Assembly (NCBI RefSeq): GCF_003704095.1
Contig: NW_020844730.1
Span: 62,001-126,000 of the forward strand
DNA length: 64,000 nucleotides
Direction of reading: 5' to 3'
Source: Pocillopora damicornis
Lineage: Eukaryota
Part shown: piece by piece, positions 42,396 through 46,290 of the stretch
How positions within the stretch are numbered: the first letter of the stretch is position 1
Layout of the letters: the number at the start of each line of letters is the position of its first letter
The notes under the pieces: generated by a model
What the model was told of the DNA's origin: nothing
The model's database searches: none
Seen by the model: the letters and a program-made list of their open reading frames with translations, nothing else
Program-made: the position numbers and the translations under genes

Positions 42396-45300
42396 TCATT
42401 CATCGCTACTTTCGCTAACTTTCCTCATTTCTGCAAGAACTTCAGCCTTTTCTTCCTCCAGGGAGATTTCCCTGGATTGAGGACGGAGATTCCTTGAGGT
42501 ATCTTGGTCACCTGAAAGGTGAAAGATATTTTTTATAGAAACTAACCAAGAACAAGTCAACTCTCGTGTTACTGAAATTAAAACACATGGGACGTGGAGT
42601 TTGAAAGTCAGTGTTTTTGCAGCTAACCTCGAGATTTGATTTTCTATTACACATCAGGTATGGCGATAGAGTTGTGGATCATAGGCGCACTTATAAGTGT
42701 TGAAATAGCCCAGCCCAGTAGAAGACTGAAAAAAAAATCTAAATAGGTTTCAATCATCATTGGGCTTCACTTGATGAAACATGGGATATCTGTTGCCTTT
42801 TTATTTTAATCAATATCATCTTTTAAAACAGTATGGTTGATAACACTTACCCATCAGTAGCCTGGCGTTATTCAAATTACATTTCTCCATCATTAAGTCC
42901 ATTTCCTCCACTTCATCATCTTCGTCTTCATCCATTCCCTTCCCCAGCATCTTTAGTCTCTCAAAGCGAATTTCCTGCGCACCAGGATCGTTCCTTCTGT
43001 TTAGTGAGTTTTTCTTGCCGGGGTTGATGATTCTGATTGCTCTGCTGTTTAAATCCTGTTCAGCGGCTCGCGTGCGTCGACTTCTTCGCCTCCACATCAG
43101 CACGGCGAGGACACACAATAGCAATACTCCTATTACTCCTGCAGCAGCCATGCAGCCTATTAACACGGTGTCCCGAGAGTCGTCCGAAGGCTCATCAAAA
43201 CTCGACTCTGTGCACGAGAGAATTCAGTGAAAGATTGATCAGTTGACTTGATGAGATTATGTTCCATTTCAGAACAAAGTGTTGCATCTTTCTAAACACC
43301 CTTAATTTTAAGAAATGTGTAAAAAAGACTTGCTCAACGTTTTTGGTGCTATTATTGTCCTCGAATCATTTTTAATATACCACATGATTAAAAAGAAATT
43401 TGAAAGGCTTGAAGACGTCTTTTAAAAAGAGAGACATGTAAACGAAAATAGTCCTTTTGTTTGTGAAACAAAAAATCTTTTTTGCTCACTAATCAACTCT
43501 TAATGACGGGACAATTATTAAAGCAAAACTATTTTTGAGACTGTTTAAAATTGTCATTCTCCTTACTGTCAACCATACAATTCTCACAATGTTCGTTCAG
43601 AGAATTTAGTATTGGATCAACTAATTATCCCCAAATTGACATTTTTCTTTATTCTATTCACTTATCTGTTTGATAATGTATTGATATCTTGAGAAGAAAT
43701 CCTGTCTTGGTCACTCATGGGAGTTAAGGGGTTAAGAGAACATAGCCCGACTTACCCTCCACTACAGTCTTGTCTGTCGTATTGATTCCGTTGTCGACAG
43801 TGTTGGCTGTTGGTGTTATTACAGGCACAATGTTTTGTTCGGTTTCAGGAATATGATCGATGGATACTTCTTCCGAAAACAAATAGGAAATAAGAAAAGC
43901 GTTACATAGGGTGGAGAAAAGAGAAGAAAATTGCATTAAGGACTTAATTACAGATGACAGAGTTTTCTGAGCAGTACTACTCGATAACAGAGTGGGCCAA
44001 GGCTGAGCCTTGGTCAGTTTCATTAAGCTTCAGTCCAAGAACATAAAAAATATATTTGTGATGCGCTGATTTTTCCCTCCTCCAAAAATACGTGATCTCA
44101 TAATTTATCACTCAGCCGAAACGATTGTAAGAGACAAAACCTAAAATTGAACCATGAAAAAAAAAGACTCTCTTAAAGTGCATACAGCAATGTGAAGCTT
44201 AAAAAAGACCCAATCTACCAAATATTGCAGAGCTTTTAAGAGAAAAAAATAAGTTGGGGGAACTTAGATGCACATGAAAACCACTAAACCAAGAAAGTAC
44301 CTGATTTGAATTCCACTTCACTGATCAACACCCACCATCCGTAATAAACAAATTCGCATGTGACATGTTTTCCAATGTTTCCATCTAGGTTAACCTCAAT
44401 CCAAACAGCTTTGTTTCTCAGTATTGATCTTTTAGCCATACTCGGTTCATATATGGTCTTCCAAGCAAAATACTCGCCATCTCGAGAGAACGAAAGCACA
44501 ACTTTGCTGAAGAGCATCTTTTCATGGTGACTCGGAAGATTAAGCACGTGAAAACGGATGCTAGAGAACTTTCTTAAGGATGAGAATTCAAATGTGACAG
44601 TTGGGTCAGAGGTTTTGGAATCTTGCCAGCCAATCCAGTCAATCCAGATTGGGTTACCAGTGTCATTCCAGTCAGCATTACGACCAATCACTCCGTCTGT
44701 TAACTGACCCAGTCCCCGGTAAAGTACGCCTATCTTCTTCCCAAAAGCGAGCCTCGTACCATCGTAGCCGTTATCTCGTAAAGAATTCCATCCGGGTAGA
44801 TTCTGTCGGATATTTCCCTGGGAGATGCGGTACGAAACCAAGCCATCTGAAAGGAAACTAAAACTTTTTAAAAATTATGGTGATGTTGACTGAAACAACA
44901 TTAATGTAGACACTTTTTGTTGTTGTATGTTTGTTTTTGTTTCGTTTCCTTTGGTTTTGTTTTCTATATAAAGGGCTCAGAAATTTAATGAGATTCAACG
45001 AGCTATTTGTCGTGCTTGACATGTAGCCCCAGCTTTGCAAAGCTAGGGAATCCTAAATGGCACTAGCGGGATAGCGTCTCCTAAATTGAGGCTTTTCTCA
45101 AGGGAGTTACTTAGTCGTTTTTAGAGCAAGATGCCAAATTATCAGTATCCTTTGGTTTGGAATAGCTCTTTGAATAACAGTTCTTAAAAGGAAGTATGTG
45201 GTGTACCATGTCTAGTCCAAGAACAGCCATGTATTTCCATCTTCAGGCACCATCTGTCTCCAATTCCTTGGTCCAACACAAGCCGAACACGGCGGGCGAT

Positions 45301-46290
45301 CCGCGGGGTCAGTAGGTGGTGTTTGTGGACTCTGGAGTCATTGATTTTAATTAGCTGTAATGAGAATCAACACGAAACAGATTGAAGTAAAGAATCATCG
45401 ACCAACGGATAAAGTAAAGTCAAATCATTTCTACGTTGAAGCGAGTGTTAAGAGACTCGCAACTTACTGTGACAGATACATCGTTTCTATGGTACCGCCT
45501 CCATTTCAAGTCTCCATCACGTTTATAGGCTAGGAAATACTGTGACACGTACATGAATGTAGAGTTCCCAGTAGAGTCGTTTTTCACCAACACTCCTACA
45601 GTAGACAGGGCACTGACGAGCATGTTCCTACCCAAGTCAACCTGAAAGCATCAGTAGAACAGTCTATTTTAACTTCCTCTTACATTTCTTGTTTCATTTA
45701 TTTAGCTTGCTGTTATTCTAAAAGCATCTTATTTACGCCTAGAGGATGACACTTTGCAAAACTGCATGAACGCGTAAACTTTTTTCAAGCTCTCGTCAAG
45801 CCATTGCACTACAGCTAAAACAGGCAAACGAGGCAACATTTCTGTTAATCTTGCGCATTTTCTTTACTTTTTAGTAAAGAATCCCCGTAAAAAAACCGAC
45901 AGAAAAAATTCAGCCCTAACCTCTATAAATGCTTTTTCTTCTTTGGCAGTTGACGAACACCAGCCTACAGTGTCCGGAGAATTGTTCATTCGTCCGTGAT
46001 AAGCACCGAATAAGGTGTGGTTTATTGTAGAAGAGGCACTCCATTGACTGTCTGGGATTAAAATGCTGAGGGGAGAATCGCATATCTCTGCTTGATATGA
46101 AAGAACAATAAGATAAAAAAACGTTTCAAAGAGCAAATTGAGCCACAGCGCACTCGTGGTTTTGAGTGTAAAATTAAACAAGAAGCGAAGCATTTTAACG
46201 AACTAGAGAGAGGGAAGAGAGGTGCGTACCTGATGATACTCTTGAAAAAACCACTAAGAGTGAAATGAGCTTAATCATCGTTTCTTTCAT
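42396..46290 (-). CDS. Discoidin domain receptor (DDR)-like type I membrane protein: signal peptide, DS (F5/8C), DS-like, stalk, TM, cytoplasmic tail without kinase; 8 coding exons, 560 aa
   Basis: Exons 46290-46230, 46087-45921, 45641-45468, 45354-45207, 44846-44301, 43869-43756, 43207-42851, 42511-42396, all GT-AG with consistent phases (1683 nt). Motifs: IPDSQWSASS, GWCS, IEVDLG, PRIARRVRL, CLKMEIHGC, DGLVSY, YDG..GLGQLTDGVIG, WIGW, TFEFSSLRKFSSIRFH, WVLISEVEFKS; TM followed by RRRSRR. Confidence 0.88.
43553..43735. mobile_element. piggyBac-like MITE (partial) in DDR-like intron 6
   Basis: Ends GGGAGTTAAGGGGTTAA; closely similar to 61774-62010 (CTACTGTC..ATACAATT..CTGTCTTGGTCACTCAT.GGAGT.AA.GG). 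Confidence 0.7.

What the first reader, a model, noticed from the sequence alone, without database searches (positions are those of the whole stretch)
42396..46290. Kinase-less discoidin domain receptor: candidate decoy or new adhesion receptor
Seen: the DDR-specific DS plus DS-like ectodomain and a TM, then a tyrosine-free tail of about 120 aa that stops at 42396; no kinase motifs (HRD, DFG) recognised between there and the gap at 39449. Established: DDRs are collagen-activated receptor tyrosine kinases. Inference: a dedicated non-catalytic gene that could act as decoy, co-receptor or matrix/skeleton adhesion protein.
Basis: partly seen in the sequence, partly recalled or inferred. Interest (0 to 1): 0.7.

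Follow-up and report, generated by a model that had tools for sequence, protein, structure and literature searches.

The report
Ancient kinase-less discoidin receptor in corals
Stony corals and sea anemones keep a second, transcribed copy of the collagen-receptor gene DDR that has no kinase, has lost the key residues of the usual collagen-binding groove and carries its own conserved inner tail, so it likely works as a non-enzymatic adhesion or scaffold receptor rather than as a collagen decoy.

Summary
Eight exons (46290-42396, minus strand) give a 560-aa protein: signal peptide, DS, DS-like, stalk, TM and a 118-aa tail with no tyrosine. RNA contigs join all seven introns, splice 42851 to 42511 in 7 of 8 runs, and end in a poly(A) at 40683, before the gap. 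No kinase lies in 94 kb around the gene; the genome's canonical kinase DDR is on another contig. All 11 full-length orthologues (stony corals, Nematostella, Actinia) lack the kinase, and the ectodomain is better conserved than that of the canonical coral DDR. The decoy and skeleton readings are weakened. All 11 have lost the Arg105/Glu113 collagen-recognition pair, which almost every other DDR keeps, and carry a longer loop with an N-glycosylation sequon there. Anemones have no skeleton. Two tail motifs are strongly conserved. Best reading: a non-catalytic adhesion or scaffold receptor with a changed ligand (inferred, about 55%). Kinase-less DDRs are already known (Drosophila Smal, planarian tDDRs, human DDR1d/e), so this is a new variant. 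My searches found no description of this family. Ligand, partners and expression site are unknown.

The parts
57225..57254 (-). Probable alternative 5' UTR exon (at least this stretch), spliced to 46312
   Evidence: Loose end of an X1 contig at 46312; a 15-base piece of it maps to 57225, next to a GTAAGT donor. One run only.
50203..50231 (-). Alternative 5' UTR exon (at least this stretch), spliced to 46312
   Evidence: Joint 46312-50203 in runs X1 and X16
46230..46312 (-). Exon with start codon (ATG at 46290) and signal peptide, residues 1-20
   Evidence: hydrophobic helix 2-17 in the model
45921..46087 (-). DS domain exon a; a second acceptor at 46090 adds one Ala
   Evidence: Joints 46087 (4 of 4 runs) and 46090 (3 of 4 runs)
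45468..45641 (-). DS domain exon b
45552..45593 (-). Remodelled loop L4, residues 93-106: Val and Met at the Arg105 and Glu113 positions, 14 residues long, two N-glycosylation sequons (N97, N102)
   Evidence: Alignment to 4AG4, column table, long hairpin E74-96/E103-116 in the model
45207..45354 (-). DS domain exon c
44301..44846 (-). DS-like domain exon; calcium-ligand equivalents D234 and E360
   Evidence: PF21114 E 5.4e-29
43756..43869 (-). Thr/Pro-rich extracellular stalk exon, not conserved
   Evidence: 0 of 52 stalk columns invariant
42851..43207 (-). Exon for TM helix (about 43166-43089), basic stop-transfer stretch, tail motif 1 and acidic stretch
42987..43037 (-). Tail motif 1, residues 461-477 (RIINP.KKNSLNR.N type)
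   Evidence: 12 of 17 columns invariant in 10 orthologues
42396..42511 (-). Last coding exon, 37 codons and TGA
   Evidence: Joint in 7 of 8 runs
42420..42494 (-). Tail motif 2, residues 529-553 (N.RP.S...EE...VL.EMR type), running into a predicted C-terminal helix
   Evidence: 11 of 25 columns invariant; helix 535-557, pLDDT 60-86
41646..42389 (-). Optional intron in the 3' UTR, starting 6 nt after the stop
   Evidence: Joint 41645-42390 in 5 of 8 runs; retained forms also assembled
40683..42395 (-). 3' UTR to the main poly(A) site at 40683 (ATTAAA at 40705-40700)
   Evidence: Poly(T) loose end in X13; contigs of 5 of 8 runs end at 40677-40688; X1 and X9 reach about 40360

Best explanation
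This is a transcribed, conserved DDR paralogue of stony corals and sea anemones that has no kinase and has lost the Arg/Glu pair of the DDR collagen groove; it likely works as a non-catalytic single-pass adhesion or scaffold receptor, predicted to bind a ligand other than the canonical DDR collagen motif and to couple through two conserved tail motifs to cytoplasmic proteins. Shown: gene structure, transcript, absence of kinase, DDR-type fold of the ectodomain model, loss of the collagen residues, conservation of the tail motifs. Inferred: (1) it arose by duplication of a full DDR followed by replacement of the juxtamembrane and kinase exons with a short last exon; (2) the longer loop with its sequon is glycosylated and closes or reshapes the collagen trench, so binding has moved to another ligand or surface, possibly on the highly conserved DS-like domain; (3) the tail is a docking scaffold in which invariant serines in basic settings (KKNS, RP[QE]S) would be Ser/Thr-kinase switches and the terminal helix would bind a cytoskeletal or scaffold protein. 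Reading these as kinase-site patterns rests on my own knowledge, not on a call.
For: Transcript and poly(A). No kinase nearby, with positive control. 11 of 11 full-length orthologues (556-639 aa) have no HRD/DFG; source labels include Stylophora, Oculina, Desmophyllum, Montipora, Acropora, Nematostella and Actinia. The family is one clade at 100/100 with anemones split from corals. Ectodomain identity Pocillopora-Acropora is 63% (DS) and 75% (DS-like), against 43% and 63% for the canonical DDR of the same pair. The model (mean pLDDT 79.8) matches DDR1 4AG4 at Z 33.3, rmsd 2.9 A over 325 residues. Arg105/Glu113 equivalents: 0 of 11 in the family; 4 of 4 canonical coral DDRs; 5 of 5 vertebrate-type; 2 of 2 Smal-type; 57 and 55 of 60 others. 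Loop length is 14 with a sequon in 11 of 11, against 6 residues and 0 of 4 in canonical coral DDRs. That pair recognises hydroxyproline and E113K abolishes collagen binding (PMC4332414, passages). Tail: 12 of 17 and 11 of 25 invariant columns in the two motifs, against 0 of 51 between them and 0 of 52 in the stalk; neither motif occurs in any of 61 kinase-bearing proteins among the 313 held. Kinase-less DDRs have adhesion-type phenotypes in fly and planarian.
Against: No ligand, partner, localisation or cell-type data were obtained. Whether invertebrate DDRs bind collagen at all was stated as unknown in 2013 (PMC4332414, section 2), and canonical coral DDRs also lack the Trp52, Thr56 and Asp69 equivalents, so the loss of Arg/Glu does not prove loss of collagen binding. 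The tail matches no Pfam family and most of it is low-confidence in the model, so the scaffold role rests on conservation alone. The tree is unrooted: grouping with cnidarian DDRs is 85/95 on three long branches, and grouping with flatworm kinase-less proteins is not rejected (p-AU 0.50).
Confidence: 0.55

Rival explanations
1. Cis co-receptor or modulator: it pairs in the membrane with the canonical coral DDR (or another receptor) and tunes its clustering, trafficking or output, without binding matrix itself.
For: A canonical DDR with an intact kinase exists in the same genome. DDRs are constitutive dimers held by their TM regions (PMC4332414 figure legend). Planarian tDDR-2 acts redundantly with kinase DDRs (PMC13322009 passages). 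Loss of the collagen pair fits a protein that no longer needs its own ligand.
Against: Only 3 of 26 TM columns are invariant, weak for a specific TM pairing. The paralogues share just 28% (DS) and 39% (DS-like) identity, and the kinase-less gene is more conserved than its supposed partner.
Confidence: 0.22
2. Collagen decoy: it binds the same collagen site as the canonical DDR and soaks up ligand, membrane-bound or shed.
For: DDR-type ectodomain with both DS disulfide pairs and the calcium ligands kept; an exposed stalk that could be cut; human DDR1d/e lack all or part of the kinase.
Against: Arg105/Glu113 lost and loop L4 rebuilt in 11 of 11, while canonical coral DDRs keep both. A strongly conserved cytoplasmic tail is not needed for a decoy.
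Confidence: 0.08
3. Skeleton attachment or biomineral matrix protein of stony corals.
For: Secretory-pathway type I protein with many sequons; strongly conserved among scleractinians.
Against: Orthologues with the same loop and tail motifs exist in Nematostella and Actinia, which build no skeleton (own knowledge). A secondary use in calicoblasts is not excluded.
Confidence: 0.07
4. Artefact: an ordinary DDR whose kinase exons are hidden in the gap or mis-assembled, or a decaying truncated copy.
For: A 100-N gap lies at 39350-39449; databases name the protein as an ordinary DDR.
Against: Spliced stop codon and poly(A) before the gap; the same architecture in 11 of 11 orthologues; a separate canonical gene.
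Confidence: 0.01

Closest known systems
Discoidin domain receptors DDR1/DDR2 (PF00754 + PF21114 + PF07714; PDB 4AG4, 2WUH) and the canonical coral DDR on G000:C3290
   Same: Signal, DS, DS-like, stalk, single TM; fold match Z 33.3 to 4AG4; DS cysteines and calcium ligands kept; intron positions and phases at the DS start, mid-DS, DS/DS-like border (within one codon) and DS-like end match the canonical coral gene.
   Different: No kinase; 118-aa tail with 0 Tyr against a 250-aa juxtamembrane region with 13 Tyr; Arg105/Glu113 lost; L4 loop 14 residues with sequon; one extra intron in the DS domain.
Drosophila Smoke alarm (Smal), bioRxiv 10.1101/2021.05.12.443649
   Same: Dedicated DDR-like gene with no HRD/DFG motifs, proposed by its authors to act mainly in adhesion (passages).
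   Different: Separate origin (AU test rejects one clade, p 0.00076); keeps Arg105/Glu113; long tail with many Tyr and neither coral motif (D. suzukii protein P0055).
Planarian truncated DDRs tDDR-1 to -3, PMC13322009
   Same: Separate genes for DDR proteins lacking a kinase; tDDR-2 RNAi disturbs tissue organisation (passages).
   Different: Their sequences were not examined here. Two parasitic-flatworm DDR-like proteins without a Pfam kinase (P0136, P0102) lack the 14-residue loop and the tail motifs, though they also lack Glu113 and a shared clade is not rejected.
Human DDR1d and DDR1e splice isoforms
   Same: DDR ectodomain and TM lacking all or part of the kinase (PMC4332414 section 2).
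   Different: Splice forms of the kinase gene with the collagen site intact, not a separate conserved gene with its own tail.

Membership tests
DDR receptor tyrosine kinases | Tandem DS + DS-like ectodomain | tested here: met
   PF00754 E 6.3e-15 and PF21114 E 8.7e-29; Z 33.3, rmsd 2.9 A, 325 aligned to 4AG4
DDR receptor tyrosine kinases | Signal peptide and single TM helix | tested here: met
   Hydropathy and model helices 2-17 and 414-457
DDR receptor tyrosine kinases | DS cysteines and DS-like calcium ligands (Asp233, Glu361) | tested here: met
   C64, C170, D234, E360 in 11 of 11; C23 and C178 by alignment; ligands named in PMC3320712. Sequence level only.
DDR receptor tyrosine kinases | Cytoplasmic tyrosine kinase domain | tested here: not met
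DDR receptor tyrosine kinases | Long tyrosine-bearing cytosolic juxtamembrane region | tested here: not met
   118 aa, 0 Tyr; 9 of 10 orthologue tails have none
DDR receptor tyrosine kinases | Collagen-site residues Arg105, Glu113, Trp52 | tested here: not met
   0 of 11 for each; Trp52 is also absent from canonical coral DDRs
DDR receptor tyrosine kinases | Binding and activation by triple-helical collagen | not testable with these tools
   Needs a binding assay
Smal-type kinase-less DDR | DDR ectodomain and TM with no kinase, as a separate gene | tested here: met
Smal-type kinase-less DDR | Common descent with Smal | tested here: not met
   p-AU 0.00076 (LG+G4 quick tree, 34 rows)
Flatworm truncated DDRs | Common descent | tested here: inconclusive
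   p-AU 0.50 with two long-branch parasitic flatworm proteins; planarian tDDR sequences not obtained
Decoy receptor for the DDR ligand | Keeps the ligand site of the signalling paralogue | tested here: not met
   By sequence only: canonical coral DDRs keep Arg/Glu in 4 of 4, this family in 0 of 11
Coral skeletal organic matrix proteins | Detected in skeletal proteomes or calicoblasts | tested here: inconclusive
   0 matches for 'discoidin' or the Stylophora accessions in 3 and 5 supplementary files of two proteome papers; those files may use other identifiers; no single-cell data seen

The most novel reading that the evidence does not exclude
An ancient hexacorallian receptor family in which the DDR ectodomain has been re-aimed from collagen to a new ligand and wired to an undescribed serine-regulated cytoplasmic docking module: a DDR-derived cell-adhesion molecule that is under stronger constraint than the kinase DDR itself, and possibly older than Hexacorallia.
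Probability: 0.35. Interest if true: 0.72.

Novelty: new variant of a known kind. Interest (0 to 1): 0.5.

Why it matters
Kinase-independent DDR function is an active question (DDR1 ectodomain effects on collagen, PMC13631726 abstract start; Smal; planarian tDDRs). This family is a natural separation-of-function experiment conserved across corals and anemones, with an orthologue in the tractable model Nematostella. It names exact residues to test: the rebuilt L4 loop and two tail motifs. It also shows that automated annotation hides it under ordinary DDR names. With the C881-type genes it points to two independent kinase losses in one coral genome with opposite outcomes: one lost the collagen pair and tyrosines, the other kept both.

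Tried and rejected
Hidden kinase exons: rejected for the main isoform. First AlphaFold run on a 10-sequence alignment gave pLDDT 36.7 and was discarded; the 97-sequence run was used. Ectodomain homodimer prediction: no answer, score 0.00 in both runs, alignment not used; no evidence either way. Look-alikes of the tail: ESM Atlas was unavailable; Pfam found no family for the tail fragment P0044; the tail search of the 5.8-billion set returned 10 proteins, all of this family, among 335 candidates of 308-980 aa only; the own-genome search matched only this gene, 2 matches of 3 candidates. Literature: searches showed no description of a cnidarian kinase-less DDR in their listings (4, 1, 4 and 7 papers listed; of these only PMC13322009 was opened); six accession stems gave 0 papers; 'discoidin' had 0 occurrences in the main text of the coral skeletal proteome papers among the 20 of 75 listed; most subscription papers are not in the library. 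The paper reader closed before the supplements of a Stylophora single-cell atlas (id recalled, nothing seen) could be searched, so cell-type expression is open; bioRxiv supplements were not available. Earlier scan findings: none by sequence or words. Rooting the tree: no labelled sponge, ctenophore or placozoan DDR was on hand. Rows left out: the 92-ectodomain set dropped six near-duplicate isoforms and all proteins without both domains; the IQ-TREE run used 34 of the 92; tail statistics use 10 of 11 orthologues, leaving out P0005, whose tail diverges after the TM and looks mis-modelled. WH2-, LD- and dileucine-type readings of the tail were considered from memory and dropped because the consensus is not kept across the family.
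Full report
Observation. Splice contexts read from the sequence give eight coding exons on the minus strand from 46290 to 42396, all GT-AG, open for 560 codons. The product has a signal peptide, a DS domain, a DS-like domain (PF21114, E 5.4e-29), a Thr/Pro-rich stalk, one TM helix and a 118-aa tail without tyrosine. An RNA-derived 560-aa protein of the same form, P0001, stands for a cluster of 148 sequences whose named members are labelled Pocillopora damicornis and P. verrucosa, so the window is from a Pocillopora coral.

The transcript ends before the gap. 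Contigs of four RNA runs from four studies join all seven coding introns (one joint is drawn with a five-letter offset in two runs). The donor at 42851 goes to 42511 in 7 of 8 runs and no other joint from it is listed. A single X4 contig runs from 42509 through the stop to 40686. X13 shows 23 T at 40683, 22 nt past ATTAAA, and contigs of five runs end at 40677-40688. An optional intron begins 6 nt after the stop (5 of 8 runs). Contigs drop rare forms and 59 loose-end rows were not shown, so a rare isoform is not excluded. A kinase HMM finds nothing at E<10 in 94 kb around the gene and finds the control on C3290 at 2e-94.

It is a separate, conserved gene. Two own-genome searches found four DS-like exons: this one, one on C3290 and two on C881 (lower bounds). 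C3290 holds a full DDR with an intact kinase. Searching with exon 5 among proteins of 318-2000 aa gave 11 hits, ten of 556-639 aa and one fragment, none with a kinase family; the tail search added Actinia. All 11 full-length members lack HRD and DFG. They form one clade (100/100) with anemones apart from corals. For the same species pairs the ectodomain is more conserved than that of the canonical DDR: 63/75, 65/75 and 72/84% (DS/DS-like) against 43/63, 51/59 and 63/67%. The coral-anemone split is several hundred million years old (own knowledge).

Origin. Introns at the start of DS, mid-DS, the DS/DS-like border (within one codon) and the end of DS-like fall at matching places and phases in both coral genes, and both have phase-1 introns after the stalk and after the TM exon. 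After the TM exon the canonical gene has a 1038-nt juxtamembrane/kinase exon; this gene has a 37-codon last exon. Duplication followed by loss of the kinase exons is the simplest reading (inference). The tree groups the family with canonical coral and hydrozoan-type DDRs at 85/95, on long branches and without a root. A clade with Smal is rejected (p-AU 0.00076); a clade with two flatworm kinase-less proteins is not (p-AU 0.50).

The ligand face is rebuilt. With a 97-sequence alignment AlphaFold2 gives mean pLDDT 79.8, and the model matches DDR1 4AG4 at Z 33.3, rmsd 2.9 A over 325 residues (Foldseek E 5.4e-26). In DDR2 the collagen trench uses Trp52, Thr56, Asp69, the Cys73-Cys177 bridge and an Arg105-Glu113 salt bridge that reads hydroxyproline; E113K abolishes binding (PMC4332414, passages). 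Across 92 ectodomains the cysteines and the calcium ligands Asp233/Glu361 (PMC3320712, passages) are kept in the family. Arg105 and Glu113 are kept in 4 of 4 canonical coral DDRs, 5 of 5 vertebrate-type, 2 of 2 Smal-type, and 57 and 55 of 60 others, but in 0 of 11 family members (Val/Ile; Met/His/Tyr). The loop between them is 14 residues with an N-glycosylation sequon in 11 of 11, against 6 residues and 0 of 4 in canonical coral DDRs; the model draws it as a long hairpin. Against over-reading: canonical coral DDRs also lack Trp52, Thr56 and Asp69; three flatworm kinase-less proteins also lack Glu113; and collagen binding by invertebrate DDRs was called unknown in 2013.

The tail is under selection. 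In 10 orthologues, residues 461-477 have 12 of 17 invariant columns and residues 529-553 have 11 of 25, while the 51 columns between and the 52 of the stalk have none. Each motif holds an invariant serine in a basic setting, and the second runs into a predicted helix (535-557). Neither motif occurs in any of the 61 kinase-bearing proteins among the 313 held, in Pfam or elsewhere in the genome's scored candidates. Nine of ten tails have no tyrosine; Actinia has three.

Mechanism. Shown: a type I membrane architecture with a DDR fold, no kinase, a rebuilt collagen site and a conserved tail. Inferred: it sits at the cell surface, binds a ligand other than the canonical collagen motif (matrix or a neighbouring cell), and passes force or signal through serine-regulated docking motifs to scaffold or cytoskeletal proteins (0.55). 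Rivals: cis co-receptor of the canonical DDR (0.22; only 3 of 26 TM columns invariant), collagen decoy (0.08), skeleton attachment (0.07; present in anemones; 0 matches in 8 supplementary files of two proteome papers), artefact (0.01).

Comparison and novelty. It is not a DDR receptor kinase by the kinase, juxtamembrane and collagen-residue tests, but it belongs to the DDR ectodomain family. It works most like Drosophila Smal, which lacks HRD/DFG and is proposed to act in adhesion (bioRxiv 10.1101/2021.05.12.443649, passages), and planarian tDDRs, whose knock-down disturbs tissue organisation (PMC13322009, passages). It differs from Smal in origin, ligand site and tail. Database models already have the kinase-less form but under ordinary DDR names. 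Searches showed no paper describing the family; the library lacks most subscription papers, and the paper reader closed before single-cell supplements could be checked. Verdict: real, a new variant of a known kind, interest 0.5.

Noticed in passing
G000:C881:72400-95700 (L011-L014): Tandem DDR-like copies with TM and a short tyrosine-rich tail; no kinase HMM hit in 55001-118901, though the contig is heavily gapped. The P. verrucosa relative P0305 has 9 Tyr in a 111-aa tail and no Pfam kinase. P0167 is sister to the genome's own kinase DDR (100/99) and aligns Arg and Glu at the collagen positions. The second DS-like copy has two stops. This looks like a second, recent kinase loss and is the better decoy or adaptor candidate.
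   Followed up: partly
G000:C3290:70740-77469, minus strand: Canonical DDR, 965 aa from the first DS exon, intact kinase motifs; signal exon not located. It lacks Trp52, Thr56 and Asp69 equivalents.
   Followed up: yes
Protein P0021 (labelled Hydra vulgaris): Two DS + DS-like units, TM and a tail of about 24 aa, no kinase; may be a fused gene model. Keeps Lys/Glu at the collagen positions.
   Followed up: partly
Proteins P0018 and P0030 (unnamed): Single DS-like exon translations scoring 256 and 176 bits against the family profile, far above canonical DDRs (under 91); possible more distant members whose taxa are unknown.
   Followed up: no
window 43547-43736: Repeat in intron 6 with very high summed contig depth and many loose ends in all four runs, and a false-looking joint to 50621; probably a dispersed repeat.
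   Followed up: no
window 41646-42389: Optional 3' UTR intron starting 6 nt after the stop; spliced and retained forms coexist.
   Followed up: partly
window 46195-46605: A database isoform of 662 aa (P0168) starts at an upstream ATG inside what the RNA joints show as intron upstream of 46312; probably an intron-retention model.
   Followed up: no
window 51375-51646: A GT..AG joint on the plus strand in one run (X9, depth 4.6): possible antisense transcript inside the long 5' intron.
   Followed up: no
window 33778-35499 (+) and 15417-17366 (-): Two long single-ORF MFS_1_like transporters.
   Followed up: no
window 4785-9119 (+) and 25013-25948 (-): A class C GPCR (ANF_receptor, NCD3G, 7tm_3) and a rhodopsin-family GPCR.
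   Followed up: no
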